Made by a program: the position numbers and the translations under genes
Notes under the pieces: generated by a model
Database searches by the model: none
What the model saw: the letters and a program-made list of their open reading frames with translations, nothing else
What the model was told of the DNA's origin: nothing
From: a virus
Reading direction: 5' to 3' (one strand)
Length of the DNA stretch: 64,000 bases
IMG/VR virus record: IMGVR_UViG_3300027747_004308
Coordinates: 5,127-69,126 of that record
Shown: in pieces, positions 29,740 through 61,187 of the stretch
How the letters are laid out: each line of letters begins with the position of its first letter
Numbering within the stretch: position 1 is the first letter of the stretch

Positions 29740-30504
29740 ATGGCATTTTCAGTTAATGACAATGGTACATGGAAAACAGTAAAAAAGCTTAGTGTTAATG
29801 ATGGTACATGGAAAGCAGTAAAATCGGGATGGATTAACAAGAATGGTATTTGGACTAAATTTTATAGCGGTACAACTACAGTAAATGTAACATCGCAAAA
29901 CAACATCAATCTACGAACACTTTATACCAATCAAACAGGAGACAGTTCTAGCGATGCTGTATCGGTTATTTTTAATATAAATGGTAATATAGGTAGTACA
30001 AGCTCAGGTATACCGTCACTCGTTACTGGTACATGGTCTACTGGAAGTGAAATAGTTATTAACATTGCAGCGGGCGTGTATGTTGCAGGAGCAGGTGGGG
30101 GTGCTTGTACAGCGGGAGGAGCCGCGATTTCTTTGAGTAATAATGTTTTGATTATCAATAATGGTATAATTGCTGGTGGCGGAGGAGGGGGAGGTTCAAT
30201 CGGTGCATCAGGCGGCAGAGGAGATGCTCGGGGTGGTACTGGTGCTGGCTTGGTAAATGGTCAACTATATAATGCAACAGCTGGGGGGTACTGGAAATAT
30301 TGTGCTTGGCCTTGGGATTGTGTGGATGGTATTGGTGGTACAGGCGGTGCTTTAGGGAGTGCTGGTTCTCCCCGAGGTGGAAATGGAGGTCCAGGTGCTT
30401 TCGGATATGTATGCTCACAAGGCGCAGGTGGTAACGCCGTTGTTCTAAATAATAAAACCGTTACTTGGTCTCCACAAGGTACGACATACGGTAGTATAAG
30501 TTAA
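29740..30504 (+). CDS. gp38-like glycine-rich adhesin 1
   Basis: Start MAFSVNDNG after TAAATA-N5; NNGIIAGGGGGGG polyglycine pattern as in T-even gp38. Confidence 0.8.
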   Translation: MAFSVNDNGTWKTVKKLSVNDGTWKAVKSGWINKNGIWTKFYSGTTTVNVTSQNNINLRTLYTNQTGDSSSDAVSVIFNINGNIGSTSSGIPSLVTGTWSTGSEIVINIAAGVYVAGAGGGACTAGGAAISLSNNVLIINNGIIAGGGGGGGSIGASGGRGDARGGTGAGLVNGQLYNATAGGYWKYCAWPWDCVDGIGGTGGALGSAGSPRGGNGGPGAFGYVCSQGAGGNAVVLNNKTVTWSPQGTTYGSIS

Positions 30505-30537
30505 AAAAAATATTATTAAAAGAATAAATATTATTAT

Positions 30538-30768
30538 ATGGCCGACGTAGCAATTTCAGATCTAGATGCAGGTACACCCGTGGGTACCGGTGTTGTTCCT
30601 TATTCCGATGGTACAACCACATACAAATCAACTATTACTAATCTTCCTGTAGCATGGAATTCAGTAACTGGAAAGCCTTCTATTGGAACAAACGCTGCAG
30701 GTGCTAGAACAATTTCTACAAGTACACCTACGGGTGGTTCTAGCGGTGATATATGGTACCAGGTTTAA
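30538..30768 (+). CDS. mini-fibre/adaptor (MADVAISDL leader, GDIWYQV terminus)
   Basis: Shared leader; WNSVTGKP and PTGGSSGDIWY fibre motifs. Confidence 0.75.
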   Translation: MADVAISDLDAGTPVGTGVVPYSDGTTTYKSTITNLPVAWNSVTGKPSIGTNAAGARTISTSTPTGGSSGDIWYQV

Positions 30769-30780
30769 TGAAAATGCTTT

Positions 30781-31734
30781 ATGGCATTTTCCGTAAATGA
30801 TAATGGTACTTGGAAGACAGTAAAAAAGCTTAGTGTTTATGATGGTGCATGGAAAGCTGTAAAATCAGGTTGGATCAACAAAGCAGGTGTATGGACTAAG
30901 TTTTATGCAGCCGATCCTTTAGTTGATGTATTAATAGTTGGTGGAGGAGGTGGAGGAGGTGGAGGAGCAGCTGCTAGGCTTGGGGCCTATGCAGGAGGAG
31001 GCGGAGGAGGAGCAGGTGGTTTTAGGTACATCTCACAAATACAATTAAATTTAGGTACAACTTATACAATAACTGTAGGAAATGGTGGTGCAGGTGGTAT
31101 CGGTGGTAGCTCAAGTTCATCCGGTTCAAATGGAGGAGACTCTTCAGCTTTTAGTTATACTAGTACAGGAGGAGGAGGTGGGGGAAAAGTTAGTACTGCA
31201 GGAGGAATAGGTGGTTCAGGTGGAGGAGGGGGCCAAGGGCTAACGGCTGGTGGGGCAGGTAATACGCCTGCTACTTCACCCGTACAAGGATATAATGGTG
31301 GAGGAGGGGCACGTCCAGGTGGAGGGGGCGGCGGCGCTGCAGCAGTAGGAGGATCAAGTGATAACGTTACTGGCGGTAGTGGTGGAGCAGGTGCTTCTTC
31401 ATCTATTTCTGGTGTTTCTGTAGCTTATGCAGGAGGGGGAGGGGGTGGAAAAGGTGAAGGTCGAAACGGCGGTGGTGGAGGAGTAGGCGGTGGTGGTAAT
31501 GGAGCTAGTCCGGGTGACGGGTCTTCGGGTAGCGGGTCCGGAGGTACAGCTAATAGTGGTGGAGGAGGGGGCGGTGGATCAGGCGGCAATGGAGGAAACG
31601 GAGGAAGTGGTGTTGTAATAGTTCGTGCATTATCTACAGCGCCTATACCTATAACTACCGGAGGGGTAACTGTTACTACAGTTGGAACAGACAAAGTATA
31701 TAGTTTTACATCATCAGGCACAATAACATTTTAA
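30781..31734 (+). CDS. glycine-rich adhesin-like protein 2
   Basis: Same MAFSVNDNG docking N-terminus; V.IVGGGGGGG...GGSGVVIV glycine-rich domain. Confidence 0.85.
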   Translation: MAFSVNDNGTWKTVKKLSVYDGAWKAVKSGWINKAGVWTKFYAADPLVDVLIVGGGGGGGGGAAARLGAYAGGGGGGAGGFRYISQIQLNLGTTYTITVGNGGAGGIGGSSSSSGSNGGDSSAFSYTSTGGGGGGKVSTAGGIGGSGGGGGQGLTAGGAGNTPATSPVQGYNGGGGARPGGGGGGAAAVGGSSDNVTGGSGGAGASSSISGVSVAYAGGGGGGKGEGRNGGGGGVGGGGNGASPGDGSSGSGSGGTANSGGGGGGGSGGNGGNGGSGVVIVRALSTAPIPITTGGVTVTTVGTDKVYSFTSSGTITF

Positions 31735-31739
31735 ACAAT

Positions 31740-32642
31740 ATGGCATTTTCAGTTAATGATAACGGTACCTGGAAAACAGTAAAAAAACTCAGTGTTTATG
31801 ATGGTGTATGGAAGGCGGTAAAGTCCGGCTGGATCAACAAAGCAGGTGTATGGACTAAGTTTTATGCTTCTGATACTACTATTACTATAACAGGTGGTAA
31901 TAATATTAACTTGAGATCATTATATGAAACACAAACTGGAGATTATTCATCAACTCCTGTTGATGTTAGTTTTGTTGTAACAGGTAATGTAGGAAGTACT
32001 TCTACCGGAACTGCATCTTTAGTTACAGGCACATGGCCTGCCGGCAGTTCCATCACCCTCACCAATAATGCTATAATTGCAGGTAAAGGAGGTGATGGGG
32101 GAACAACATCGGGTGGTACCAGTTCACCCTGTACCTGCTTTGGCTCATCCGGTGGGTATACCAGCTCTACAGCCGGTACAAATGGAGGAAACGCTATTTC
32201 ATTAGACTATGCATTAGCAATTATTAATAATGGTACGATTGGCGGCGGGGGAGGCGGGGGAACAACTGTGGCTTTTCCATATGCAGTATCCAATGTTCAA
32301 CCTGCCCGCGGCGGAGGCGGTGCAGGTATTAATGCAGGTGTAGCCGGTGGAGAGGGTACATGCAAAGGATCTGGTTCATTTAGAGGGTTTTTTGGTTCAA
32401 ACGGTACAGAGCTTGCAGGAGGGTTAGGAGGCTCCTCATCAGCAAACCGAGATGCAGCTTACGCTACAGCGGGGAACGGAGGAGCTCTTGGACAGCCATC
32501 TACTCAAGGATGGTCAAATTATTATAACTGCGCGTATCGCACTAAGATATATACCTCTACACAATCACCGGGATATGCTTTGGTGAGTAACGGTAAAGCA
32601 TATACTTTAACAGGGAACGCTTTAGTAGGGCCCGTTAACTAA
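31740..32642 (+). CDS. gp38-like glycine-rich adhesin 3
   Basis: Paralog of 29740 gene; NNGTIGGGGGGG. Confidence 0.85.
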   Translation: MAFSVNDNGTWKTVKKLSVYDGVWKAVKSGWINKAGVWTKFYASDTTITITGGNNINLRSLYETQTGDYSSTPVDVSFVVTGNVGSTSTGTASLVTGTWPAGSSITLTNNAIIAGKGGDGGTTSGGTSSPCTCFGSSGGYTSSTAGTNGGNAISLDYALAIINNGTIGGGGGGGTTVAFPYAVSNVQPARGGGGAGINAGVAGGEGTCKGSGSFRGFFGSNGTELAGGLGGSSSANRDAAYATAGNGGALGQPSTQGWSNYYNCAYRTKIYTSTQSPGYALVSNGKAYTLTGNALVGPVN

Positions 32643-32650
32643 ATATTATT

Positions 32651-33370
32651 ATGCCAAGTCAGACATTCACATCAAGTGGTAGTTTTACAGTACCTTCAGG
32701 ATCTGGATCAGGTTCATCTAGTATATCTGTAAACAATGGAGGTACATGGCAAACAGTAAAAAATATTTCTATAAATGATGGCGGGACATGGAAAACAGTA
32801 AAGACAGGGTGGATCAATAAAAATGGTATATGGACACAATTCTTTACACCAACCATTACTCTTACGGTGCAGGTTGTAGGTGGCGGTGGAGGCGGGAGAA
32901 CAGATAACGGAGGTAGTTCAAGTACCCGTTCCGGGGGTGGTGGAACCTCATATTTTGGAAACTACATGTATGCTACAGGAGGCATAGGTGGAGGATGTGG
33001 TACCTGCTCTGGAGGTTCAGGTGCGGGAGGAAATATTCAAAATTCTACTGGCGGAACTGGGCAATATTGTTGCAACGGAGGAGCAGGATTTTTAGGATAT
33101 GGTACTGGAGGTAATGCAACTCCTTGTGGAAGAACCGGGCAATCTTGTGCTCCAACCTGTATTGGCGGAGGTAATCAAAGGGGGGGTTGGGTATGTAATA
33201 GTGGAGGAGGAGGCGGGGGTTATGCTTACGGTACGGTTGAAGCAACTGTAGGAGATGTAATCTCTATTACTGTTGGAGGCGGGGGAGGTAATTATTTTTA
33301 TACAGAAGGATGCCGAGGAGGAAGCTCATCTGCTGGTTCCGCAGGTGTAGTTATTGTTACCTGGGCATAA
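32651..33370 (+). CDS. glycine/cysteine-rich adhesin-like protein 4
   Basis: FTSSGSFTVP glycine-rich domain with internal VNNGGTWQTVK motif. Confidence 0.8.
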   Translation: MPSQTFTSSGSFTVPSGSGSGSSSISVNNGGTWQTVKNISINDGGTWKTVKTGWINKNGIWTQFFTPTITLTVQVVGGGGGGRTDNGGSSSTRSGGGGTSYFGNYMYATGGIGGGCGTCSGGSGAGGNIQNSTGGTGQYCCNGGAGFLGYGTGGNATPCGRTGQSCAPTCIGGGNQRGGWVCNSGGGGGGYAYGTVEATVGDVISITVGGGGGNYFYTEGCRGGSSSAGSAGVVIVTWA

Positions 33371-33378
33371 ATAAAATA

Positions 33379-33609
33379 ATGAAAACGTATGCAGTAGTAA
33401 AAGAGAATAAAATTATTAATATTATTGTGTTAGATAATATTAGCTCCTATCCTACAGAAGATATATTAATTGATGTGTCTAACCCTTTCGTACTCAATGT
33501 ACCAGGGCTTAGTGCATCAGAAACATTTACTCCAAGTATTGGATGGACATATGATGAAAAAGGATTTTTCACTGATCCAGAGCAACATAGATATTGGTAT
33601 ATCAAGTAG
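33379..33609 (+). CDS. putative fibre assembly/chaperone protein
   Basis: MKTYAVV..NKIINIIV...IGWTYD..F; TAAATA-N5-ATG. Confidence 0.65.
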   Translation: MKTYAVVKENKIINIIVLDNISSYPTEDILIDVSNPFVLNVPGLSASETFTPSIGWTYDEKGFFTDPEQHRYWYIK

Positions 33610-33631
33610 TTATAAAATTTCAAAAAAACAG

Positions 33632-33659
33632 TTGACTCTTTCCGCGGTTCAGCCATAAT
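33632..33659 (+). promoter_or_regulatory. sigma70-type early promoter
   Basis: TTGACT-N16-CATAAT. Confidence 0.8.
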
Positions 33660-33668
33660 ATATGGATC

Positions 33669-33995
33669 ATGAATAGCACATTGCTAGAACCAACGGTTCG
33701 TAAGAACCCGGCTAACCGAGAGAACGCCGCCAAGTCCTCTCGCGAGGTGACTCCTCGTTTGGTTTGTATTATTACCGGTAAGTCCCGTCTTACTAACGCC
33801 AAGTATTTGGCTTCGAAACCTGAAGGTTTCGTGACTAACTATATTGCTCGTCCCGCGCTGAAGCTCCTTCGCGCTGGTAAAAGCGTTCAGGACGTTCGGA
33901 CGGAACTCGGTGTGACCGACGTTACTACCGCAATCTCGGATAGCGCTCTCCAGAATGCTATCAAGATCAACGGTAAGTGGTCTAAACAGAGCTAA
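33669..33995 (+). CDS. hypothetical early protein (paralog of 22153-22458)
   Basis: Shared motif; GC-richer codon usage. Confidence 0.85.
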   Translation: MNSTLLEPTVRKNPANRENAAKSSREVTPRLVCIITGKSRLTNAKYLASKPEGFVTNYIARPALKLLRAGKSVQDVRTELGVTDVTTAISDSALQNAIKINGKWSKQS

Positions 33996-34040
33996 TATTA
34001 CAGCTTAAGAAGAGCCCAAGATAACAGTAATATAATCAAC

Positions 34041-34092
34041 GAAACCCCATGCCGAGTTTAGCTCTTCTTTTCGGCATGGGGTTTCTATTTTT
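34041..34092 (+). terminator. intrinsic terminator
   Basis: GAAACCCCATGCCGA...TCGGCATGGGGTTTC plus T-rich tail. Confidence 0.85.
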
Positions 34093-34098
34093 AATTTT

Positions 34099-34311
34099 AT
34101 GAAGAAATATACACACAAAGAATTAATTGATAGGAAGATTCTCTTTATCAATACTGCTGTTAACAAATTTATAATACATGAGGGTAAGATAAATGAGTTT
34201 TCATCTTCCGGTAAATGCATTAAGATAAATCACGAATGGTTTTTGCTAGAGAAGATATCTATACTAGAGCTGTTTACTGAAGAAGAGCGACCTGGCTTAA
34301 GGTTTGTCTAA
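34099..34311 (+). CDS. hypothetical protein
   Basis: ORF. Confidence 0.6.
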   Translation: MKKYTHKELIDRKILFINTAVNKFIIHEGKINEFSSSGKCIKINHEWFLLEKISILELFTEEERPGLRFV

Positions 34312-34973
34312 GGATTTGAACTTACTATAATGTAGTTACCATTATTTGTGGTAATGAACCTTGCATCGTTGGTAATAAGGTAATTATTACGACGAGGTAT
34401 ATTGATTGTGAAGCTACTTGAATTACCGAGAGCAATATAATAGGAAGAATTAGGATAAAGATATGTTAATGTATTTGTTTCGTTAAAGGATCCAATGAGT
34501 GATTGATCATAACGCTTCCAAGAATTGAACGCGGGATATGCAACACTTGTATTATCGATTACAACTGTCCAAGCAAATCCGAGTACAGACGACAGCGGCA
34601 CTGTACCAGCAGAATTAGTAACAGTAGCAGTTAAAATATTAATAGGCAATGAATTTGCAGGCATAGATAAAAACGCAAACGGGCCAACAATCGGTCTTAT
34701 TGTAATGCCTGGATATGAACCTTCTTGTGCAACACTAGCATTAGCAGAGAGTACTACTTGATAAGAAGAGCCAGGCGTAAAGGAAGTTAACCAAGTTAGT
34801 TGAAAGTCAACAGGTAAATCCGGTGTCCAAGAACGTACGCTAGCAGGGTTAGAAGGGTTAACACTACTTACTCTTGTTATACCTGGGTAATTTACAAATG
34901 CGCTTGCTGCACTAGAATTATGTGTATAAAGCTGAAATGTGGGCTGTAATAGTACAGTTTGATAATTAGCCAT
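34308..34973 (-). CDS. late structural-type protein
   Basis: TAAATA-N5-ATG; LTSFTPGSSY-type repeats; C-terminal YLIT..FITT motif. Confidence 0.75.
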   Translation of the reverse strand: MANYQTVLLQPTFQLYTHNSSAASAFVNYPGITRVSSVNPSNPASVRSWTPDLPVDFQLTWLTSFTPGSSYQVVLSANASVAQEGSYPGITIRPIVGPFAFLSMPANSLPINILTATVTNSAGTVPLSSVLGFAWTVVIDNTSVAYPAFNSWKRYDQSLIGSFNETNTLTYLYPNSSYYIALGNSSSFTINIPRRNNYLITNDARFITTNNGNYIIVSSNP

Positions 34974-35010
34974 GTAATTATTTATTCAATAGGTGTATAA
35001 TATTTTAATA

Positions 35011-35316
35011 TTATATTAAGTCAGCTATTTTTCTGTTTATTTTTTTAAAGCTCAAATTAAGAGAGAATGGTTTAACTTTTGCACCGTCATCAAACATTCT
35101 AATAAAGTTATTAGCTACTTTAGGAAGATCGCTCTTATAGGTAGTAATTTTATTGCCATGTTTGATTTTGATTGCAGCTTCTTCAGGTAACACTCTAACA
35201 TAATAAACATTCTTTACCTGTTCCATAATTGAGTTTGCTATAGGGCATTTTCCTGGATTAACCTGTTCACCATTCTTTATATTGGCTTTTGTAACTTTTA
35301 AATTAATATTTCTCAT
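35011..35316 (-). CDS. hypothetical protein
   Basis: CPIA motif; TAAATA-N5-ATG. Confidence 0.75.
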   Translation of the reverse strand: MRNINLKVTKANIKNGEQVNPGKCPIANSIMEQVKNVYYVRVLPEEAAIKIKHGNKITTYKSDLPKVANNFIRMFDDGAKVKPFSLNLSFKKINRKIADLI

Positions 35317-35383
35317 ATAATTATTTAGTCAACTAATACATGCATTTTTACAGAAAATAACGAGTCATAAGATAAATATTAGT

Positions 35384-35992
35384 ATGACCCTTGATGATAT
35401 TAAGATGTTCGAAAGTTATGTTAACAAGCGCTTTAAAGTAATTAACGAAGGTACATACTCAGATGCTAGTTTAGAGCAAGCCAATTCAAAGCGGTTGGTT
35501 GAAATACTCGACATGCTTAAGAGTGATGCCAATCTCGCTACCAAATTTGCTCTTTCACCTGAAGAATTTGCTGGTGTGATTGAATGGGCAAAAACAAAAT
35601 TTGATGCTACTACACCAACAACAAAGCCACCAGGCTATAAAGATGAATCAGGTGCTTTAGGAGGCCCTGTATTTACAACAAAACGTGTTAAAGAATCAGT
35701 TGTTAAAGAGAAAAAAGAAGCCAAGGATGAAGATAACATGGAGATGGTTGTCAAGCCTAAGTCAGAAGAGACCGAAGAAGAGTATCTCGCTCGTCGTGAT
35801 TCTGCTATTAAAGCTGCAATTTCTGCTAAAGAAGAATCAGAAGAACAAGCCGCTCTTAACTCACATTACAATGTTAATCATGAAGCTCTTGATTTAGTTG
35901 ATAAATTAATCAACCACCCCAAGAAATATTCTAAAGCAGATACTATTAAGATCTTGACAATGGCTGCTGATAAGTTACAGAACAAAGCTTAA
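35384..35992 (+). CDS. acidic late protein, possible internal head protein
   Basis: DDIKMFESY leader; TAAATA-N5-ATG. Confidence 0.75.
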   Translation: MTLDDIKMFESYVNKRFKVINEGTYSDASLEQANSKRLVEILDMLKSDANLATKFALSPEEFAGVIEWAKTKFDATTPTTKPPGYKDESGALGGPVFTTKRVKESVVKEKKEAKDEDNMEMVVKPKSEETEEEYLARRDSAIKAAISAKEESEEQAALNSHYNVNHEALDLVDKLINHPKKYSKADTIKILTMAADKLQNKA

Positions 35993-36172
35993 GTTGCTTT
36001 TTAATTACTTTATTATAGAATAGGTTTATGGCTGACGAAAAACCAATTGTTAAAAAACTAAAGTGTGGTGGTTATGGTGTTTATACAACAGATTCTAAAA
36101 CAAAGCAGTTAGCACAAACCGGTTATATTGGTGCTAATCTTACTCTAGAAGCTTGGCTTCCTAAAGACGCAG

Positions 36173-36514
36173 TTATTCAGAAATAATTTTAACTACCTTA
36201 CCAACATAGTTTTGTTGGATAATATAATTTCCATCACAAAGGAAATTGTTATCACCTTTTGCAATAAATCCTTTAAAGGTCTGCAAAACAACTCTATGAC
36301 AAGTTGAAATCTCTTGACTATATTCTGGATCGTTGAAGCAAACAATATCACCTTCTCGTAAAGAGCTATATGGAATATCTTTATCAATGTAAATAAGGTC
36401 ACCGTTCTTAAAGGTAGGGTACATTGAATTGCCATGCACACGAAGCTTTGCAATATCTTCTGCAAATGCGTTAATAGCAAGCAGACCCGTTAAGGCAATA
36501 ATCTTTAATTTCAT
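36173..36514 (-). CDS. signal peptidase I-like (S26, Ser-His/SipW type)
   Basis: GNSMYPTFKNGD, GDIV.F, HRVV, KGDNN; signal peptide. Confidence 0.85.
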   Translation of the reverse strand: MKLKIIALTGLLAINAFAEDIAKLRVHGNSMYPTFKNGDLIYIDKDIPYSSLREGDIVCFNDPEYSQEISTCHRVVLQTFKGFIAKGDNNFLCDGNYIIQQNYVGKVVKIISE

Positions 36515-36768
36515 TATACCGTTATTGTAACGGAATTTAGAAAACTGGCAATATAAAAATTAAGAGAGACTTGGCTGGTTGCCGCCTGTAGCAGCAGGCA
36601 GAGATTGAGTTGGTATCATATCAGCACTGGTAACAAGAGGTGTTTTATCTGCTTGAGGAAGAGGTGATTTCTTTTTCTTTTTGCGTAACTGTTGACGCAT
36701 ATATTCTTTAAAGGTCATAGAAATATTTAATCTAGCCAAAAGGATTGAACTCTTGGCTAGAATTAGGA

Positions 36769-37077
36769 TTACTTGGAGAAGTCGCCAAGATCGCGGCAGA
36801 ATGTATATTCACCGGGTGCAGTTACAACCGTATCATATACTTCTTCTGTCGCATCAGCCATTGCAGCAAAAGGCGATGCTACTGCAAACACACCAAAGCC
36901 AGCAACCGTAGTTGCAGCTCCAATGGGCCTAACAAGTAGTAGATCACCAATGCATGTCCAAACGCTCTCAACTGTTACCTCATCATTACCGCTTGTATTA
37001 GAAGCAGTACCAGAGTCAGCAAGAGCAACGCCTGCAAGCATTACGCTGGCGGCGAGAGTGACTAGTAGTTTATTCAT
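36769..37077 (-). CDS. secreted/membrane protein of bacterial type
   Basis: Signal peptide; DLLLVRPIGAATTV.G...ASPF...P..YTF.R.LG. Confidence 0.75.
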   Translation of the reverse strand: MNKLLVTLAASVMLAGVALADSGTASNTSGNDEVTVESVWTCIGDLLLVRPIGAATTVAGFGVFAVASPFAAMADATEEVYDTVVTAPGEYTFCRDLGDFSK

Positions 37078-39528: not shown

Positions 39529-40174
39529 AAAGCTAAAAGAAAAAAGCGATAAAGGATTTTTTAGAACAGATCTTCCTCACACAAGTATTAATAATTGTGA
39601 TTGGTACAATCATATCTATTCTAGTCCTTCCGTTCGTTATGGTCATTTAGAATACTTTAAATCATACAATGATGCTATTGAAGTTGTGCATTGTGTTTTC
39701 TTTCCTTCTTACTATAAAGCTCTTCCTATCTTTGGCTATGATGCAATAAGCCTGGGCGGTAAAATAACTGGAGTATTTTGTGACTATACTCCAAGCCCTT
39801 ACCATGATATGATATTACAATCTTCTATAAGCTCTATTAAAGACAGTTTAAAGGATTTACAGAGAGACCTTCCCGGGTGGACAGAATTTTTTTCACCAGA
39901 GTTTATAGCTATAAGCCCTAGGGAGAAGTATGAAGAATCAGAAATAAAATGTATAACTCTATTTGATCTCTATATAGCTGTCACTAAAGAGTTTGATAAG
40001 AATAATAAGTTTCTTAACTGGGATGAAACAAGAGCCCATATAGATGGTCAAAATAAATATTCCATAGGTCAACGTAAGAACTCTAAGACACAGAAGGCTT
40101 TAGCAAAATATATAGGTGAAGATGCAGCAAAAGACTTTATTGAAAAGACACTTTTTCCAACATATAACTATTAA
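39503..40174 (+). CDS. ferredoxin-dependent bilin reductase, PcyA/PcyX-like
   Basis: GHLE, HCVFFP, LPIFGYD, D.TP, LP.W..FS, Q..Y...Q.KN.KT, FI...LFP. Confidence 0.9.
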   Translation: MSSLNDLYKKLKEKSDKGFFRTDLPHTSINNCDWYNHIYSSPSVRYGHLEYFKSYNDAIEVVHCVFFPSYYKALPIFGYDAISLGGKITGVFCDYTPSPYHDMILQSSISSIKDSLKDLQRDLPGWTEFFSPEFIAISPREKYEESEIKCITLFDLYIAVTKEFDKNNKFLNWDETRAHIDGQNKYSIGQRKNSKTQKALAKYIGEDAAKDFIEKTLFPTYNY

Positions 40175-40182
40175 ATATTTAA

Positions 40183-40737
40183 ATGGCCGATGTATTAATA
40201 TCTGATCTAACAACAGGAGTACCAAACGGATCTAATTTTATACCATATACAACAAGTTCTGATACAAACAAAACTCTTGTTTCTAGTATAACAGCTGCTT
40301 GCCAGCCAGTGAATTATATCGGCGCAAGTGTTACAAAAGCTACAATGACCGGTATTTTGGCTAATGTTGAAACAGATTGCAATTTTAACTCCACTACTTT
40401 TGATTCAAGTGGCTTCTACAATAATGCTGTTAGCAATTCTCGTCTTACTGTTCCCTCAGGTTTAGGTGGTATATATTTAATAACTGGCTATCTGACTACT
40501 TCAACTACTAGTGCATATTATAGAAACGGTATTCTTTTAGTAAAAAATACAGGCACTGTTATAGCGCGTAATGACACTTCTATTGGTTTAAATGGCGTTG
40601 ATGTTCCAATGACTATATCTGCAATTGTATCTCTTGTAGCTACAGATTACATTAGACTACGAGGCATTTGTGAAAATTTTTATAGTACTAATACTTTTAA
40701 AACACCTACACTAAGTATGATACGCCTTGGTGTATAA
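40183..40737 (+). CDS. short fibre/decoration protein, MADVxISDL leader with C1q/TNF-like head
   Basis: RLTVPSG.GGIYLI..., L..TDYI.L; TAAATA-N5-ATG. Confidence 0.75.
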   Translation: MADVLISDLTTGVPNGSNFIPYTTSSDTNKTLVSSITAACQPVNYIGASVTKATMTGILANVETDCNFNSTTFDSSGFYNNAVSNSRLTVPSGLGGIYLITGYLTTSTTSAYYRNGILLVKNTGTVIARNDTSIGLNGVDVPMTISAIVSLVATDYIRLRGICENFYSTNTFKTPTLSMIRLGV

Positions 40738-41666: not shown

Positions 41667-41673
41667 TAAGAGT

Positions 41674-43598: not shown

Positions 43599-43644
43599 GT
43601 ATATCTTCAATTTTAGTTTGTGTTGCAGTAGTACTATATGTTAT

Positions 43645-44420: not shown

Positions 44421-44441
44421 GTTTTTTATTAAATATTAGAT

Positions 44442-44984
44442 ATGGCCGACGTAACCATATCTGAATTAACTAATAGACAGCCTAATAGCTCGGCTGTATT
44501 TCCCTATTCAGAAGGCGGGACAACATATAATGCTGCGTTGAGCAACATTCTACCTAAAGGGCTCATATCTATGTGGTATGGTTCATTAGCCACAATACCA
44601 ACAGGCTGGGCATTGTGTGATGGTACAAACAATACACCTGATTTAAGAAATAGATTTATTGTTGGAGCTAATGTTGACAACGCAGGTATAGCTAATACCA
44701 ATATTACGGGATCGAACACCCAAACGGGGGGTTCAAAAGATGCTATTGTAGTTAGCCATAGTCACGGAATAACAGATCCTGGTCATTCTCACCTTGTATC
44801 TCCAAGTTATGGCAGGAATGTAGGCGGCGGAAGCAACCTGGTCATTCTTGGAAAAAATTATGACCCAAATCCAATTGGAACTACACAAAATCAAACAGGA
44901 ATTACTATCAATTCAGAAGGCTCATCAGGCACCAATCAGAACTTACCGCCTTTTTATGCCCTTGCATATATAATGAAGCTGTAA
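44442..44984 (+). CDS. tail collar-domain short fibre (MADVTISEL leader)
   Basis: P.G.I.MW.G....IP.GWALCDG...TPDLR.RF.VG; HSH; PPFYALAYIMK. Confidence 0.85.
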   Translation: MADVTISELTNRQPNSSAVFPYSEGGTTYNAALSNILPKGLISMWYGSLATIPTGWALCDGTNNTPDLRNRFIVGANVDNAGIANTNITGSNTQTGGSKDAIVVSHSHGITDPGHSHLVSPSYGRNVGGGSNLVILGKNYDPNPIGTTQNQTGITINSEGSSGTNQNLPPFYALAYIMKL

Positions 44985-45514: not shown

Positions 45515-45527
45515 AATAAATATTTAA

Positions 45528-46076
45528 ATGGCAGATGTAGCAATATCTCAATTGACTCAAAGACAGCCTGCAGGAGCTGCATTAGTTCCTTACTCCGAAG
45601 GGGGTACTACATATAGTGCATCTGTTACCCAAGTCGTTTCACTTGCTTCAAATGTACCTTCTGGGGGTATTATATTATGGTCAGGCGCTGCAAACGCCAT
45701 TCCCTCCGGGTGGGTTCTCTGTGATGGTACAAATAGCACTCCTAATCTTGTTGATAGATTTGTAGTAGGAGCAGGAGTAACAACACCAGCAGTAGGAACA
45801 ACAGGTGGATTAAAGGATGCAATAGTAGTAAGTCATTCACATACAGCATCTGACTCCGGCCACGTGCATGCTATATTAGGCGTTAGTAGCTCGCGAGGAA
45901 AAGGAACAGCATTATTTGGCATTCTTGATACAAGCTTGTTTTCATCAACTACTAATGCTATCAAAGGCAATGGTCAAATTGGGGCCGCTAATATTACTGT
46001 AGCAGCTGAAGGCCAATCAGGTACTAATGCTAACCTTCCACCTTATTATGCTTTGTGCTACATAATGAAAGTGTAA
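45528..46076 (+). CDS. tail collar-domain short fibre (MADVAISQL leader)
   Basis: Collar motif; paralog of 44442. Confidence 0.85.
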   Translation: MADVAISQLTQRQPAGAALVPYSEGGTTYSASVTQVVSLASNVPSGGIILWSGAANAIPSGWVLCDGTNSTPNLVDRFVVGAGVTTPAVGTTGGLKDAIVVSHSHTASDSGHVHAILGVSSSRGKGTALFGILDTSLFSSTTNAIKGNGQIGAANITVAAEGQSGTNANLPPYYALCYIMKV

Positions 46077-56789: not shown

Positions 56790-57425
56790 ATGCAAAACGA
56801 TGATCATTTGATTTTTGAAGCTTTTAAAAGAAAGTGGAAATTAACCAGCATGGATCCAAAGCAGGCTGAAGCTGAATTTGGTAAAGAAAATGTAAAGGTT
56901 ACTCCCAAGGGCTTGCGCAATGGAAAGGATATGATAGAAGTTAATGTTCCCGATGAAGATGCAGAGAATGAACCGCATGGTTATCCTCAAGGTATCACAG
57001 CCATTCAGAATACATTGATCAATGAATTGAAGAAGAGAGGCTTTCAGTTGACCAAGATTAGCCATGAAGATAAAGAGAGAGACAAATACCCCACGGTTTT
57101 CATGTCCAGAAAATCTAACTTTATGCATAGCGTTGTAGAGATAAGCGGCATGGGAGAGATCAATGGTGAACACTATAAAGCTTATTTGGCTGGCTCCAAT
57201 AACTCAGAGGATGCAGAAAATGCAAGACCTGATGATGTATCATATAATATTAGTTCTAAATTAGGACAAGCATATAACATTGTGAAAGGTTTAATTGATA
57301 TGCTAGATAAAACACCCTCGGAACAAACACCTTATAATGAGATGGCTATTACCCATATTGTTAATTTAGAAGAAGATGTTAAGACTTTATCGCAGATGCT
57401 ACAAGATAGAATGCTGAATAAATAA
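56790..57425 (+). CDS. modular acidic late protein (DDHLIFEA leader)
   Basis: TAAATA-N5-ATG; leader shared with next gene. Confidence 0.8.
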   Translation: MQNDDHLIFEAFKRKWKLTSMDPKQAEAEFGKENVKVTPKGLRNGKDMIEVNVPDEDAENEPHGYPQGITAIQNTLINELKKRGFQLTKISHEDKERDKYPTVFMSRKSNFMHSVVEISGMGEINGEHYKAYLAGSNNSEDAENARPDDVSYNISSKLGQAYNIVKGLIDMLDKTPSEQTPYNEMAITHIVNLEEDVKTLSQMLQDRMLNK

Positions 57426-57429
57426 CTAT

Positions 57430-58518
57430 ATGAGAAAAGATGATCATTTAATATTTGAAGCTTTGCAGAACAGGACTTTCACCATAGTTAGTGGAGGCAC
57501 AGACAATGGAGCTGAACATGGTTTTGATACCAATTTGCCTGAGTATATTCAGGCTGCTGATCTGAAGAGTGCTGTGCAGCAAATGATTGCCAACATGGCT
57601 GCAGATCCTGATGTTGAACCAGAAAATATTGATCAGACCTTTCCTAAAGAATTTAGAGAATTTCGTGAAGATCATTTTGTAATGTCTAATGATAATGGGG
57701 ATTGGTATTATGTGTTTCCAGGTAAATTGAATGAACAACAGGCTTATGACAGAGTGTTGGCCACCGGTGATTATGGCTCAGAAGACTCAGAAGAAGATGT
57801 GCCTTATGCATCAGGACAAGTGGGAGGAAGGGGAGAAGAGTATGGTTCAGGTGAAGTTAAATTATTGTTATTAAGAGATGAGAAGTTTGACTGTTATTTG
57901 AATGGTACAGTACAATCTGTGTCGTTCTTTAAGGGTACTACATTCAATTGTGAGCCCTTTGATGGAGAGTTTTATAATTGTGAATCAGATGAATATGGTA
58001 CTATAGCTATAACACCAGATGCTCATTTGAAGATATTGGATGCACCAGCAGGTAGTACTAATACAGAAGATGAGGATGCAGAGAGTGCGGATGAAAGAAA
58101 AGAGCGTACACAGAGGAAATGGGAGATGAACAAGAACAGATGGGCCAAATGGAAAATGGAGAACCCAGAAGCTGCTGCCAAGCATGCTGCCAAGAAGGCT
58201 GGTAAATCAGAGAATGCAGAAGATAGTGCAGAAGATAAGATGAGAGATAGAGAGAATGCTAGAGACGAAAAACAAAGAGATACAGAGGTGTCTCCTGCTT
58301 TTCATTATAATCCCATGCCGGGATTAATGAAAGCAGCTAGTGAGATAAGAGACATATTGCATGGTGCTGCAAATGATGAGGCTCGCACAGAACATATCAT
58401 CAAGATGGCTCAGACCATATTGGGTGATCCCACAGAATATGATAAAAATGAATACCGCAAGATGCTGGATGGGTTGATTGTTTTATTGAATAGATTTATT
58501 GTTGTGCCAATGAATTAA
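57430..58518 (+). CDS. modular acidic late protein (DDHLIFEA leader)
   Basis: TAAATA-N5-ATG; EDAE-like linkers. Confidence 0.8.
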   Translation: MRKDDHLIFEALQNRTFTIVSGGTDNGAEHGFDTNLPEYIQAADLKSAVQQMIANMAADPDVEPENIDQTFPKEFREFREDHFVMSNDNGDWYYVFPGKLNEQQAYDRVLATGDYGSEDSEEDVPYASGQVGGRGEEYGSGEVKLLLLRDEKFDCYLNGTVQSVSFFKGTTFNCEPFDGEFYNCESDEYGTIAITPDAHLKILDAPAGSTNTEDEDAESADERKERTQRKWEMNKNRWAKWKMENPEAAAKHAAKKAGKSENAEDSAEDKMRDRENARDEKQRDTEVSPAFHYNPMPGLMKAASEIRDILHGAANDEARTEHIIKMAQTILGDPTEYDKNEYRKMLDGLIVLLNRFIVVPMN

Positions 58519-58543
58519 TAATAAATAGGCCATAAATAATAAT

Positions 58544-59086
58544 ATGGCCGATGTATCCATCTCTGAATTACCCTTAGCTATTTCTGGTAATGCTAATAAT
58601 GTAGTTCCTATATCAAACGGTTTGGGAACATTTGGTCTAACATTAGGAGCAGTATGTGGGGTCATGACTTCAGCACAGATCACTACAGCTCTGGGATACA
58701 CACCATACAATGGAGCAACCAATCCTGCAGGCTATATAACCTCATCAAGTCTACCTAACACACAGCAACTAGCAAAGGCATGGGTTAATTTTAATGGAAC
58801 AACAGGTACAACTGTTGCAAATGAGTTCCAGTGCACAATAAGATCTGCCTATAATGTCAGTAAGGTGGTTAGGAATACTACAGGAGATTATTCAGTATAT
58901 TTTAATAATGTCTTTGCAGATGCTAATTATTGTGCCATCATATCCTCAGGGTCTCCGTATCAAGCTGTTCCACACGCTGAAACCTATAGTGCATCGGCTT
59001 TTCGATTTAAAAATAACTATATACCAAGTAATAGCGGAAATACTCTGCTGGATTCTGCAAATTTTAGCGTGGCCATCTTTAGATAG
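58544..59086 (+). CDS. short fibre protein (MADVSISEL leader)
   Basis: ITTALGYTPY, AKAWVNFNG...AYNVS.V...TGDY.V.F fibre tip motif. Confidence 0.8.
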   Translation: MADVSISELPLAISGNANNVVPISNGLGTFGLTLGAVCGVMTSAQITTALGYTPYNGATNPAGYITSSSLPNTQQLAKAWVNFNGTTGTTVANEFQCTIRSAYNVSKVVRNTTGDYSVYFNNVFADANYCAIISSGSPYQAVPHAETYSASAFRFKNNYIPSNSGNTLLDSANFSVAIFR

Positions 59087-59155
59087 CTGCAACTCTTTTA
59101 GCTATACGCCTGATATAGAATCTAATTTTCTCACATCTAACATTAAATAATTAGT

Positions 59156-59956
59156 ATGGCAGAGTGTACTGTACAAGCATATCGAGTAGAAGGTTGTGGT
59201 ACTGGATCGTTTAATGGCATATATGTAGCCGTACCATTTGATCCAACTGAAAATTATATGCTTTCACGATTTGTGAAGCCAGGAAATATATCAGATGAAA
59301 ATCATGTACTAGAAATACAATCCACCTGGCCCCATGGGGTTGTAGGACCCTACAAACTAGTCAGACTCTCTGGTTTCAGAGGCTCTTATACATATGGAAG
59401 TTATGGTACCAGTAGGAATTTAGTTTGTCCAGATGAGGCTACCGGGCCATGGGAATTACAAAATGTTCTGGAACCGGGACCTTCTTCCATTACAGCTGTT
59501 TCACAACAGTATGAGTGTGCTCTAAATGCATATTTGGTGCAGGGGTGTGGATCTCCTGAAGTTGATGGTGTGTATACAAAATCGTCATGGAGTAATCCTT
59601 ATAATTTTTACATCAAAGATGAAGGTAAGTATGAACTTATAACAAATCCATCATACAATGGAGGATCCATTATAACAATACGTCGTAATGATTTTGCATA
59701 TTATAGATCAGAAAATATAGCGGGCGTGTTTGGATGTCCTTTTGTTCCCGAGAATACTTCATGGTCTACCCATCAATCTAAACAGAGAATTTACCCTCCA
59801 TTACATGGATCTGGCCCCACCTGCATTATACCTTGGCCGGGGTATAACCCTTGTGCATCTCCTGCTGCAGTTCCTATTGTTGATACCCCTTTTGCAGATG
59901 AATTTGATTATTATAGTGACATAGATATTGATATAGTTTTAGACACACTTTATTAA
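59156..59956 (+). CDS. Cys-rich two-repeat late protein
   Basis: Two EC..AY.V.GCG....G.Y repeats; TAAATA-N6-ATG. Confidence 0.75.
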   Translation: MAECTVQAYRVEGCGTGSFNGIYVAVPFDPTENYMLSRFVKPGNISDENHVLEIQSTWPHGVVGPYKLVRLSGFRGSYTYGSYGTSRNLVCPDEATGPWELQNVLEPGPSSITAVSQQYECALNAYLVQGCGSPEVDGVYTKSSWSNPYNFYIKDEGKYELITNPSYNGGSIITIRRNDFAYYRSENIAGVFGCPFVPENTSWSTHQSKQRIYPPLHGSGPTCIIPWPGYNPCASPAAVPIVDTPFADEFDYYSDIDIDIVLDTLY

Positions 59957-60046
59957 TTTTTAATGGCAAAAGGAGAGCGTATTTTATTAGCTTTAGCGCA
60001 CGGTTCAGAATCGAATTTTTACCTGAGTTGATATTAAATAATTGAT

Positions 60047-60628
60047 ATGGCCGATGTATCCATCTCTGATCTCTCTGATCTGGCTCCTGCTTCTAATACC
60101 TATATTCCTCTATCAAACGGAACAACAACGGGAAGAGCTTTAACAAATAATCTACCCGGCCTTACGCCCATAGGAGGCATCATTATGTGGTCAGGATCCT
60201 TAGCCTCCATACCAACAAATTGGGCATTATGCAATGGATCTAATGGTACCCCCAATCTTCAGGATAGATTTATAGTAGGAGCAGGTAGCTCATATGCAGT
60301 CAATGGAACAGGGGGATCGGCTACTGCATCAGGAAGTACAGATGCAACTGCTCTTTCATTGAGTCAAATACCCTCTCATTCCCATACTGTATCAGATCCA
60401 GGCCATTCACACCTTTTATCGCCAAGTTATGGCATGTATGCAGGCATCGGATACAACCCGATCATTCTTACAAATAATTACACCTCTTCTCAAGTTGGAA
60501 CTACACAAAATAAAACAGGAATCTCTATTGCAGCAACTGGAGGCAATCAAGGACATAGTCATACAGTATCTTCTATTGGTACGATTCCTCCTTATTATGC
60601 ATTAGCTTATATAATGAGGGTATCTTAA
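60047..60628 (+). CDS. tail collar-domain short fibre (MADVSISDL leader)
   Basis: Collar motif; HSH repeats. Confidence 0.85.
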   Translation: MADVSISDLSDLAPASNTYIPLSNGTTTGRALTNNLPGLTPIGGIIMWSGSLASIPTNWALCNGSNGTPNLQDRFIVGAGSSYAVNGTGGSATASGSTDATALSLSQIPSHSHTVSDPGHSHLLSPSYGMYAGIGYNPIILTNNYTSSQVGTTQNKTGISIAATGGNQGHSHTVSSIGTIPPYYALAYIMRVS

Positions 60629-60629
60629 T

Positions 60630-61187
60630 ATGGCAGACGTTACGATTACCGATCTTCCCACAATTACTCCTTCAAGAGGATTGACTGTACCAGCCTCTGA
60701 TGGAACAACTACAGGAAAGCTAACTATTACACAAATTGCTGATCAAATAGTTCCTATAGGTTCCATACTATTATGGTCAGGATCCATAGCTAGTATACCA
60801 ACAAATTGGGCATTATGTAATGGATCTAATGGTACTCCAGATCTTAGAAACAGGTTCATTGTAGGGGCTAATGTCGATAATGCAGGAGTTGCTAATACCA
60901 ATATTACAGGTTCAAACACTCAGACGGGAGGTACCAAGGATGCTATTGTAGTTGATCACACCCATTCGGTATCAGATCCCGGTCATGTTCATTCAATTAC
61001 TGGTACTATATTTTCTCAAACATTTGGACCCAATATTGGGGTTGGAGCAAGCTCTACATATTCTAAAGTTAATCCAAATACTAATTCTGCTACAACTGGA
61101 ATTTCAGTTAATTCTACTGGCCAATCAGGCTCTAATGCCAATCTTCCTCCATATTATACCTTGGCTTATATCATGAGAACAAGCTGA
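60630..61187 (+). CDS. tail collar-domain short fibre (MADVTITDL leader)
   Basis: Collar motif. Confidence 0.85.
   Translation: MADVTITDLPTITPSRGLTVPASDGTTTGKLTITQIADQIVPIGSILLWSGSIASIPTNWALCNGSNGTPDLRNRFIVGANVDNAGVANTNITGSNTQTGGTKDAIVVDHTHSVSDPGHVHSITGTIFSQTFGPNIGVGASSTYSKVNPNTNSATTGISVNSTGQSGSNANLPPYYTLAYIMRTS

What the first reader, a model, noticed from the sequence alone, without database searches (positions are those of the whole stretch)
29740..61187. Two-tier modular receptor-binding system: seven MADVxIS(D/E/Q)L fibres, one adaptor and four interchangeable gp38-like tips
Seen: seven dispersed genes (30538, 40183, 44442, 45528, 58544, 60047, 60630) share a ~35-aa leader (MADVxISxL...P.S.G.TT) fused to different heads: collar/HxH needle, C1q-like, or AKAWVNF tip. 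Most have their own TAAATA promoter. One member (30538, 76 aa) has no head, ends in GGSSGDIWYQV, and sits among four Gly-rich genes that share a different Trp-rich module (VNDNGTWKTVK..W..VK.GWINK.G.WT.F). Known: T-even gp38 adhesins are polyglycine proteins that dock onto the fibre tip through a Trp-containing N-terminus. Inference: the MADV leader plugs into a common virion socket and the 76-aa protein acts as an adaptor for any of four tips, giving combinatorial host range without DNA inversion.
Basis: partly seen in the sequence, partly recalled or inferred. Interest (0 to 1): 0.75.

Follow-up and report, generated by a model that had tools for sequence, protein, structure and literature searches.

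The report
Mini-adaptor presenting swappable phage tail-fibre tips
A freshwater T4-like phage carries seven small fibre genes with one shared anchor peptide, and one of them is a 76-residue stub ending in the motif that long tail fibres use to hold gp38-type adhesins, so it probably lets the phage display any of four alternative receptor-binding tips.

Summary
Exactly seven ORFs in the 69-kb record start MADVxI(S/T)xL. Their heads are four gp12-like collar/HxH domains, one C1q-like jelly roll, one common fibre-tip domain and one headless 76-aa protein. The headless gene lies among four Gly-rich genes that share an N-terminal module of three Trp beta-hairpins.

The main new result concerns the last ~30 residues of the 76-aa protein (…G.RTIST..P.GG..GDIWYQV). 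This is a conserved fibre C-terminal "dock". It ends fibres of 61 to 1580 aa in many phages, including the long tail fibre of cultured cyanophage MED4-213.

A hairpin-module gene follows the dock almost everywhere:
- 48 of 53 loci picked by the module have a dock-ending ORF upstream.
- 63 of 80 loci picked only by the dock DNA pattern have the module downstream.
- Dock and module residues covary across the gene boundary.

Two of the four tips are true gp38 homologues by Pfam and predicted fold. The other two have different Gly-rich bodies.

The adaptor-tip reading is strongly supported by comparative genomics. Binding and the leader's virion socket remain untested, because complex prediction never ran. 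I rate this a new variant of a known kind.

The parts
30538..30768 (+). 76-aa headless MADV protein, the proposed adaptor. Residues 1-36 are the MADV leader, residues ~37-47 a VAWNSVTGKP fibre motif, and residues ~48-76 the C-terminal dock SIGTNAAGARTISTSTPTGGSSGDIWYQV.
   Evidence: There are 15 clusters of 76-83 aa in the 5.8-billion-protein set. The C-terminal residues G70, D71, I72, Y74 and Q75 are invariant. It is the only dock-ending ORF in the record.
29740..30504 (+). Tip 1: three-hairpin Trp module (residues 1-43) plus a gp38-type polyglycine adhesin body.
   Evidence: Pfam GP38 at 32.9 bits against a cut-off of 25. AF2 pLDDT 91. Foldseek matches 9v85 at E 2.9e-12 and 6f45_D at 2.8e-7.
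30781..31734 (+). Tip 2: Trp module plus a Gly_rich_2 body.
   Evidence: Pfam PF21722 at 72.4 bits. phrog_2295 at E 4e-42. Homology to the gp38 type is shown only for the module.
31740..32642 (+). Tip 3: Trp module plus a gp38-type body.
   Evidence: Pfam GP38 at 32.1 bits. phrog_11439 at E 2.7e-27 and phrog_2056 at 3e-9.
32651..33370 (+). Tip 4: a 23-aa extension, the Trp module, and a Gly-rich body ending GVVIVTWA.
   Evidence: No Pfam hit. The module matches phrog_25859 at E 7e-11. The endings ...VLIEW and ...VVILRW occur on Gly-rich heads fused directly to the leader in L003 and L005.
40183..40737 (+). MADV leader plus a C1q/TNF-like jelly-roll head.
   Evidence: Atlas lead to C1q.
44442..44984 (+). 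MADV leader plus a tail-collar/HxH head (gp12-like).
45528..46076 (+). MADV leader plus a tail-collar/HxH head.
58544..59086 (+). MADV leader plus a common tail-fibre tip domain (AKAWVNF...).
   Evidence: phrog_11355 at E 1e-11. tblastn matches to residues ~76-180 in 23 phage records.
60047..60628 (+). MADV leader plus a tail-collar/HxH head.
60630..61187 (+). MADV leader plus a tail-collar/HxH head. It has no TAAATA of its own and starts 2 nt after the stop codon of 60047-60628.
30525..30530 (+). TAAATA late-promoter-like motif, 13 nt before the adaptor ATG.
29729..29734 (+). TAAATA motif, 11 nt before the tip 1 ATG.
32640..32645 (+). TAAATA motif, 11 nt before the tip 4 ATG.
40172..40177 (+). 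TAAATA motif, 11 nt before the ATG of 40183.
44430..44435 (+). TAAATA motif, 12 nt before the ATG of 44442.
45517..45522 (+). TAAATA motif, 11 nt before the ATG of 45528.
58533..58538 (+). TAAATA motif, 11 nt before the ATG of 58544.
60035..60040 (+). TAAATA motif, 12 nt before the ATG of 60047.

Best explanation
The record is about one third of a ~200-kb T4-like freshwater myovirus that encodes a two-tier receptor-binding set.

Tier 1. A ~36-residue N-terminal leader (MADVxISxL..P....P.S.G.T) is a portable anchor. It attaches small, probably trimeric, fibres to one common site on the virion. Seven genes here carry it, and relatives carry up to eight per array.

Tier 2. One leader protein has no head. 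Instead it ends in the ~30-residue C-terminal dock that terminates bona fide long tail fibres in many phages. The dock binds non-covalently to the N-terminal three-beta-hairpin Trp module of a separately encoded tip protein. So the 76-aa protein is a minimal fibre, or adaptor. It lets any of the four co-encoded tips (two gp38-type polyglycine adhesins and two other Gly-rich bodies) be mounted on the leader's socket.

Shown: the sequence families, the fold of one tip and one head, and the conserved dock-module gene pairing with its covariation.
Inferred: physical binding, a stoichiometry of one three-hairpin monomer on a trimer, the anchor role of the leader, late expression, and mixed tips giving a broader or bet-hedged host range.
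For: Pairing of dock and module:
- Of 53 IMG/VR loci selected by the Trp module alone, 48 have a dock-ending ORF upstream, mostly -16 to +22 nt from the tip start. The upstream proteins range from 61 to about 1300 aa.
- Reverse test: 80 loci were selected only by the DNA pattern for GDIWY[QK]V plus TAA. All 80 have an open upstream frame, 77 show the full dock context, and 63 have a downstream ORF with at least 2 strict hairpin motifs. About 10 more have degenerate modules by eye.
- Among the 33 leader-selected loci, dock and module occur together in 5 (L001, L002, L006, L007, L009) and neither occurs in the other 28.
- In L009 the module is fused to an LRR-type head rather than a Gly-rich one. 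Elsewhere it is fused to fn3, FG-GAP or beta-helix bodies.
- In cultured cyanomyophage MED4-213, the 1580-aa 'tail fiber protein' ends ...PSGGSNGDIHYKI. The next gene, annotated 'tail fiber protein; host specificity', opens with three SW/TW hairpins, and a 300-aa MED4-213 protein (M4QDG1) is a structural match of tip 29740; that this protein is the next gene is inferred from its length.

Selection and covariation:
- Across 29 unique pairs, a dock ending in V goes with W-K hairpins (18 of 18), and a dock ending in Y goes with W-R hairpins (10 of 10).
- The module is under purifying selection. Between 30781 and 31740 it differs at 13 synonymous and 1 non-synonymous codons, while the bodies are only 43-51% identical at nucleotide level.
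- The adaptor is conserved in 15 clusters, with an invariant C-terminus. Two clusters carry another leader subtype on an identical dock.

Identity of the tips and the leader family:
- Tip 29740 has the gp38 fold, and a profile of this tip family matches PDB gp38 sequences.
- In relatives the leader is fused directly to Gly-rich bodies and to at least 34 head clusters.
- The leader is disordered in the monomer model.
- The TAAATA motif precedes 6 of 7 leader genes, the first and last tip genes, and the large fibre genes.
- In other freshwater metagenomes, contigs keep the module and adaptor but replace the tip body.
- Records of relatives encode the T4-type capsid protein Gp23.
Against: - No binding prediction or measurement exists. 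Complex prediction was never accepted.
- The record is a fragment. A long tail fibre with the same dock may lie elsewhere in the genome and be the real, or an additional, partner of the four tips.
- Dock and module are contiguous DNA (~250 nt), so they could be inherited together without touching. A tree of the modules needs only about 3 K/R switches, and a single origin is not excluded.
- Six of the 80 dock-selected loci are followed by Gly-rich proteins without hairpins, and one has no ORF.
- Five of the 53 module-selected loci show no dock.
- Some module proteins carry signal peptides (P0094, P0173). That fits a secreted glycan-binding repeat better than a phage dock.
- The leader's partner is unknown, and the leader has no relative among solved structures.
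Confidence: 0.6

Rival explanations
1. The tips cap the phage's long tail fibre, which is encoded outside this 69-kb fragment and ends in the same dock, exactly as in MED4-213. The 76-aa protein would then be a decaying or regulatory remnant, for example a decoy or assembly competitor, and not a virion adaptor.
For: The dock is the end of a real 1580-aa fibre in MED4-213 and of ~1100-1300-aa cyanophage-type fibres in L053, L057, L074, L075 and L085. CheckV-type estimates put related records of similar size at 26-35% complete, so most of this genome is probably unseen.
Against: The small protein is conserved at 61-83 aa in 15 clusters plus L002 and L009, with an intact leader, an invariant C-terminus and its own TAAATA motif. 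It always sits inside or directly before the tip genes. Two other leader subtypes carry the same dock, which looks like selection for a leader-plus-dock chimaera.
Confidence: 0.2
2. The hairpin-module proteins are tail-fibre assembly chaperones, of the Tfa or T4-gp38 kind. They would bind the fibre C-terminus transiently and not stay on the virion.
For: Their position directly downstream of the fibre gene is typical of such chaperones. In T4 itself gp38 is a chaperone (passages of PMC12032242 and PMC12892980).
Against: The bodies are those of adhesins: the gp38 polyglycine sandwich of the S16/PP01 type, or LRR, fn3, FG-GAP and beta-helix domains. No chaperone family appeared in the Pfam scan. 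Four or five divergent paralogues for one 76-aa client make little sense for a chaperone. Tip bodies are replaced between populations while the module stays, as expected for host-range determinants.
Confidence: 0.1
3. The Trp-hairpin module is a generic carbohydrate or cell-surface binding repeat, and the dock is just a common fibre terminus. Their adjacency would reflect operon order and linked inheritance, not contact.
For: Aromatic beta-hairpin repeats often bind glycans (general knowledge). Some module proteins have signal peptides. 3 of 30 modules weakly match Pfam WXXGXW and 2 of 30 match BNR. The K/R covariation could stem from very few events.
Against: The coupling is tight in both directions across unrelated fibre bodies and unrelated tip bodies. 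The module is almost always at the extreme N-terminus, next to the fibre's extreme C-terminus. Purifying selection keeps the module constant among four paralogues in one genome while their putative binding bodies diverge.
Confidence: 0.1

Closest known systems
gp37-gp38 long-tail-fibre tip of T2/T6/S16/PP01-type Straboviridae (PDB 6F45, 9V85)
   Same: A monomeric polyglycine adhesin is encoded next to the fibre gene and is held on the fibre's distal end through its N-terminal part. Tips 29740 and 31740 are sequence homologues of the gp38 body, and 29740 is also a structural match. Hypervariable bodies sit behind a conserved attachment part.
   Different: The attachment part here is a 45-residue three-hairpin Trp module. 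It is not the T-even N-terminal attachment domain: there is no Pfam hit in that region, and the PDB profile match covers only the body. The partner is a C-terminal GDIWY-type motif with no relative among solved chains. There are four or five alternative tips per locus instead of one. The 'fibre' is reduced to 76 residues. The module also carries bodies unrelated to gp38.
Tail fibre plus gp38-like 'host specificity' gene of cultured T4-like cyanophages (MED4-213 CPMG_00083 and CPMG_00082; P-HM1 and P-HM2 fibres)
   Same: The same dock motif ends the fibre, and the same hairpin module starts the next gene. A 300-aa MED4-213 protein (M4QDG1), taken from its length to be that next gene, is a structural match of tip 29740.
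   Different: There the dock ends a 1580-aa long tail fibre with a single tip. Here it ends a 76-aa leader protein with four tips. I found no paper describing the motif pair.
Branched multi-RBP phages with N-terminal anchor or adaptor domains (Ackermannviridae CBA120 TSPs, G7C gp63.1/gp66, K1-5/SP6 adaptor). Names and details recalled; only search listings seen.
   Same: Several receptor-binding proteins share a conserved N-terminal part that mounts them on the virion. A small adaptor can carry alternative RBPs.
   Different: The leader here is only ~36 residues, the proteins are small (135-400 aa), up to eight occur per array, and the phages are T4-like. No sequence or structural relation was found.
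T4 gp12 short tail fibre and Phage Tail Collar domain proteins (PF07484)
   Same: Four of the heads have the collar motif and an HxH pair, and they match phrog_1800.
   Different: Pfam scores are below the cut-off. The proteins are ~180 aa, with the MADV leader in place of a long shaft.

Membership tests
T2/S16-type gp38 adhesin | Glycine-rich-motif / polyglycine-II body (Pfam GP38 PF05268) above the curated cut-off | tested here: met
   29740 scores 32.9 bits and 31740 scores 32.1 bits against a cut-off of 25. This is not met by 30781 (Gly_rich_2 instead) or by 32651 (no hit).
T2/S16-type gp38 adhesin | Fold similar to solved gp38 structures | tested here: met
   The 29740 model (pLDDT 91) matches 9v85 at E 2.9e-12 and 6f45_D at 2.8e-7. 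Only this tip was folded.
T2/S16-type gp38 adhesin | T-even type N-terminal attachment domain (called Gp38_N PF21721 in earlier notes of this scan) | tested here: not met
   The Pfam scan lists only PF05268, starting at residue 47. The profile match to PDB gp38 covers query positions 75-265 only. The module profile has no PDB relative.
T2/S16-type gp38 adhesin | Sits on the distal end of a trimeric fibre in the virion | not testable with these tools
   This is inferred from the gene pairing only. Complex prediction never ran.
Phage tail collar / gp12-like receptor-binding domain | Pfam Collar PF07484 at or above the cut-off | tested here: inconclusive
   Scores are 18.4-22.2 bits against 24, and only the first ~22 profile positions match. 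phrog_1800 'tail collar fiber protein' matches at E 2e-21 to 4e-24.
C1q/TNF-like head (for 40183) | Jelly-roll fold matching C1q globular domains | tested here: met
   Foldseek matches C1QL2 (4qpy) at E 1e-6, the C1q head (6z6v) at 1e-6, and phage knobs 9eul at 5e-8 and 8ke9 at 4e-7. There is no Pfam C1q hit.
Multi-RBP phage with a shared N-terminal anchor | Paralogous RBPs share an N-terminal segment and differ in their heads | tested here: met
   Seven genes here. 91 unique leader proteins fall into 34 head clusters across 33 loci.
Multi-RBP phage with a shared N-terminal anchor | The shared segment binds a defined virion protein | not testable with these tools
   No partner was identified. 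The leader profile has no PDB relative.
Tail fibre assembly chaperone (Tfa / T4 gp38 type) | Match to a chaperone family | tested here: not met
   No such Pfam or PHROG family appears among the hits of the four tips.

The most novel reading that the evidence does not exclude
The fibre C-terminal tail (...RTVST..PSGG..GDIWYxV) and the three-hairpin Trp module form a general plug-and-socket code. Thousands of phage lineages would use it to hang monomeric adhesins of any fold on trimeric fibres, with the three hairpins matching the three chains and specificity classes such as V/K and Y/R. Some T4-like freshwater phages have fused this plug to a 36-residue virion anchor. Each copy of one socket could then carry any of four or five tips, giving mosaic virions with bet-hedged host range and no genetic switch.
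Probability: 0.35. Interest if true: 0.82.

Novelty: new variant of a known kind. Interest (0 to 1): 0.68.

Why it matters
Host range in T-even phages is set by gp38 on gp37. That pair is the template for most fibre engineering, yet it is known only from enterobacterial phages.

The results point to a different and much more widespread way of joining fibre and adhesin. A profile of the hairpin module finds 4529 protein clusters at E<=1e-3. The junction can be recognised from two short motifs that Pfam does not cover. If the motifs do bind each other, three things follow:
- They annotate the receptor-binding tip and its fibre in many uncultured aquatic phages.
- They explain how recombination can swap tips cleanly.
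- A 76-residue adaptor can redirect tips to another site on the virion.

The leader family, with up to eight small fibres per array and at least 34 head types, suggests an unusually rich receptor-binding repertoire in freshwater T4-like phages. That bears on how such phages cope with diverse host populations.

Tried and rejected
Binding prediction
It was never accepted, because the queue was full or the machine gave no answer. There is therefore no prediction of binding.

Fusion and read-through
- Read-through or fusion of 30538 into 30781 is rejected. The two are in the same frame, but TAA TGA lies between them, and the spacing is out of frame in L002.
- No natural dock-module fusion protein appeared among the 150 best module hits. 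P0073 is only a repeat protein.

Cultured phages
- Megablast of window 29000-47000 found no match.
- tblastn of the 76-aa protein found no match.
- tblastn of tip 31740 found no match, but the low-complexity filter may mask Gly-rich sequence.
- In cultured-phage records the leader is not covered by the matches to the heads of 44442 and 58544.

Solved structures and Pfam
- Profiles of the leader, dock and module have no significant relative among PDB sequences.
- phmmer with the single 29740 sequence found nothing in the PDB.
- Pfam gives no consistent family for the module or the dock.

Other
- hhalign between the gp38-type and Gly_rich_2-type tips, and between the Gly_rich_2 type and the 32651 type, aligned only the N-terminal region. 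Common ancestry of the bodies is therefore not shown.
- Phylogenetic control of the covariation: the module tree is poorly resolved, the K/R label needs about 3 changes, and one origin is not excluded.
- No RNA holder is listed for window 29700-33400.
- Earlier notes of this scan hold nothing for this genome or sequence.
- Literature: the string 'GDIWY' occurs in 0 papers. A five-term search on shared N-termini of multiple fibres in T4-like metagenomic phages returned nothing on this family.

Full report
**What the window is**

The window is bases 5127-69126 of a single 69,126-b virus record. It is AT-rich and holds six tRNA genes at 28715-29719. It also encodes dCMP deaminase, exonucleases, a DnaB-like ATPase and many fibre-like genes.

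Related records that carry the same leader gene family encode a T4-type major capsid protein (Pfam Gp23, E 3e-70 and 1.4e-91). They are estimated at 26-66% complete for 59-140 kb. The phage is therefore most likely a T4-like myovirus of roughly 200 kb, of which about a third is seen here. Window 29700-33400 is held nearly word for word by freshwater metagenomes of two study codes.

**Check of the observation**

- A regular-expression scan of all six frames of the whole record finds exactly seven ORFs beginning MADVxI[ST]xL, at the stated coordinates and all on the + strand.
- In their alignment nine positions of the first 37 are invariant, and similarity ends there.
- Four heads (44442, 45528, 60047, 60630) are tail-collar/HxH domains. 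Pfam Collar scores are just under the cut-off, phrog_1800 matches at E about 1e-21 to 1e-24, and tblastn matches from about residue 30 onward in 88 phage records.
- The head of 40183 had no family hit. Its AF2 model (pLDDT 79) is a jelly roll that matches C1q domains and phage knob domains, so "C1q-like" is right.
- The head of 58544 is a widespread fibre-tip domain.
- 30538 encodes 76 residues with no head.
- It lies among four Gly-rich genes whose first ~43 residues are three repeats of a G-x-W-K-x-V hairpin. The AF2 model of 29740 shows three beta-hairpins at residues 3-42.

TAAATA precedes 6 of the 7 leader genes and 31 of 110 ORFs overall, nearly always starting exactly 11 nt before the ATG. 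Only 4% of random 35-nt windows contain it. The other genes that have it include the large fibre-like genes on the minus strand, which fits a T4-type late promoter (the T4 consensus is recalled, not taken from a call).

**What the tips are**

- 29740 and 31740 pass Pfam GP38.
- A profile of 39 relatives matches the PDB sequences of PP01 gp38 (E 3e-8) and S16 gp38 (E 1.5e-5), but only over the body.
- The 29740 model (pLDDT 91) matches those structures at E 2.9e-12 and 2.8e-7.
- 30781 is instead a Gly_rich_2 protein (PF21722, 72 bits), and 32651 has no family hit.
- Profile-profile comparison links the types only through the shared module.

So "four gp38-like tips" is really two gp38 homologues plus two other Gly-rich bodies.

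The shared module is not the attachment domain described for T-even gp38 (passages of PMC12032242). It has no Pfam family and no relative among solved chains.

**The key result: a dock-module pair**

In relatives the small headless leader protein is always next to module-bearing genes:
- L001: 76 aa with five tips.
- L006 and L007: 76 aa with two tips.
- L002: 73 aa with one tip.
- L009: 61 aa with one tip whose body is an LRR-type domain.

None of the other 28 leader-selected loci has either feature.

The small protein forms 15 clusters of 76-83 aa. Its extreme C-terminus (G-D-I-W/Y-Y-Q) is invariant, and two clusters join a different leader subtype to the identical last 30 residues.

Searching IMG/VR with the module alone gave 53 loci. 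In 48 of them an upstream ORF ends in the same motif...G.(R/K)T(V/I)ST..P(S/T)GG..GD(I/V)W(Y/F)x(V/Y). It is mostly directly adjacent to the tip gene (one small ORF intervenes in L038, L069, L072 and L073). The upstream protein can be 61, 111, 144, 275, 484, 895 or about 1100-1300 residues long. The five loci without it are L034, L046, L047, L049 (a variant ending) and L064 (cut by the contig end).

The longest of these fibres are homologues of cyanomyophage P-HM1/P-HM2 tail fibres. In the cultured phage MED4-213, the 1580-aa tail fibre ends ...PSGGSNGDIHYKI, and the following 'host specificity' gene opens with three hairpins. A 300-aa MED4-213 protein, M4QDG1, is a structural match of tip 29740; its length is what links it to that gene.

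The reverse test took 80 loci chosen only by a degenerate DNA pattern for GDIWY[QK]V plus TAA:
- 80 of 80 have an open upstream frame.
- 77 of 80 show the full dock context.
- 63 of 80 have a downstream ORF, starting -16 to +12 nt from the stop, with at least two strict hairpin motifs.
- About ten more have visibly degenerate modules.
- Six are followed by Gly-rich proteins without hairpins.
- One has no ORF.

A profile of the module finds 4529 cluster representatives at E<=1e-3 among 1.84 billion proteins. The module is almost always at the N-terminus.

**Evidence for contact rather than mere adjacency**

- In 29 unique pairs the last conserved dock residue and the residue after each hairpin Trp go together without exception: V with K in 18, Y with R in 10, and I with K in 1. 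Both classes span unrelated fibre bodies, and both occur behind the MADV leader (76-aa V/K; 61-aa Y/R).
- The caveat is real. The two motifs are contiguous DNA, and a poorly resolved tree of the modules needs only about three switches, with one origin not excluded.
- Within this genome the module is held constant by purifying selection. 30781 and 31740 differ at 13 synonymous and 1 non-synonymous codons, while the bodies have diverged to 43-51% nucleotide identity.
- In two other metagenomes, contigs keep the module and the adaptor but carry 541 or 388 other letters in place of 652 or 331 letters of tip 1 (laid at 85% likeness, so these are related phages).

**The leader**

Across the 33 leader-selected loci there are 95 leader proteins in all, counting the window's seven. 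Of these 91 are unique, and they occur in arrays of up to eight per locus (L005, L019). Their heads fall into 34 BLAST clusters.

In some relatives the leader is fused directly to Gly-rich bodies. Examples are L005_6001, which has the leader, VDYNSLTNKP and a Gly-rich body ending VVILRW, and L006_5719 and L007_7144. The split adaptor-plus-tip arrangement therefore has covalent counterparts.

The leader is predicted disordered in a monomer. It has no relative in the PDB, in Pfam or in cultured-phage records. That it plugs into one virion socket is a reasonable inference from its portability, but nothing here tests it.

**Mechanism proposed**

The 76-aa protein is a minimal fibre made of three parts: the leader (anchor), a short VAWNSVTGKP fibre motif, and the dock. 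The dock holds the three-hairpin module of one tip.

Three hairpins on what is presumably a trimer suggest one monomeric tip per trimer, as described for gp38 on the gp37 trimer (passages of PMC12892980). This stoichiometry is speculation.

With four tips competing for one adaptor, particles would display mixtures of adhesins. I put the dock-module binding at about 0.75 and the whole two-tier picture at about 0.6.

The rivals are:
- the tips really belong to an unseen long fibre, and the stub is a remnant or decoy (0.2);
- the module proteins are chaperones (0.1);
- the module is a glycan-binding repeat with no docking role (0.1).

**Comparison with what is known, and novelty**

gp38 adhesins on gp37 are well known, as are gp38 homologues outside T-even phages (passages of PMC4819975 and PMC3909814). 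RefSeq already labels the MED4-213 gene 'host specificity'. Shared N-terminal anchors in multi-RBP phages are also known (recalled).

Four things seem not to be described, within the searches:
- the GDIWY-type dock and the three-hairpin module as a conserved, covarying pair;
- the use of that module by many non-gp38 bodies;
- a 61-83-aa adaptor that joins the dock to a different virion anchor;
- multi-tip loci.

The supplements of the papers were not consulted.

I rate this a new variant of a known kind. Interest is 0.68.

Noticed in passing
window-wide, e.g. 26047-28506(-), 24756-26039(-), 17788-18966(-), 56790, 57430, 59156: TAAATA sits at a fixed distance, starting 11 nt before the ATG, in front of 31 of 110 ORFs, and no Shine-Dalgarno-like sequence is visible. 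If it is a T4-type late promoter (consensus recalled), the transcripts would be nearly leaderless.
   Followed up: partly
56790-57425 and 57430-58518 (+); also L002:5102-5998 and L009:5099-5998: Paralogous proteins begin M..DDHLIFEA... This resembles the capsid-targeting sequence and protease site of T4 internal proteins (recalled, not tested). In L002 and L009 a gene of this type lies directly before the small adaptor, and here one precedes leader gene 58544.
   Followed up: no
12289-18966 (-) and 24756-28506 (-): A second cluster of fibre-like genes. Two share an Mtd_N N-terminal domain (14240-15964, which also has a Peptidase_S74 chaperone end, and 15964-16644). There is a 649-aa FG-GAP protein, an 819-aa Fib_succ_major protein, Pro/Thr-rich proteins (17169-17747 and 17788-18966), and two ~75-aa paralogues (16700-16930 and 16937-17158). 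This may be a second family with a shared N-terminus.
   Followed up: no
28715-29719 (+): Six tRNA genes (Leu-taa, Ile-tat, Arg-tct, Ser-tga, Asn-gtt, Tyr-gta) lie immediately upstream of tip 1. The TAAATA of tip 1 follows the tRNA-Tyr gene by about 10 nt.
   Followed up: no
L090, L133, L158, L095, L160, L126: Dock-ending fibres are followed by Gly-rich proteins that lack the hairpin module. Five of the six (all but L126) have a different N-terminus of the type R.LGFTNG.Q.LTW. This may be a second kind of plug for the same dock.
   Followed up: no
L050, L065, L076, L079: In these loci the three-hairpin module lies at the C-terminus of the protein encoded after the dock-ending fibre, not at its N-terminus.
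   Followed up: no
P0094, P0173 (module hits): Some proteins with the three-hairpin module start with signal-peptide-like sequences and carry fn3 or beta-helix bodies. The module may also occur in secreted cellular proteins.
   Followed up: no
39503-40174 (+), 50333-50812 (+), 3951-4715 (-), 9590-10699 (-): Auxiliary-metabolism-like genes: a ferredoxin-oxidoreductase-like gene (phrog_7278), a heptose-phosphate adenylyltransferase-like gene, a UDP-glucose-dehydrogenase-like gene and a radical SAM protein.
   Followed up: no
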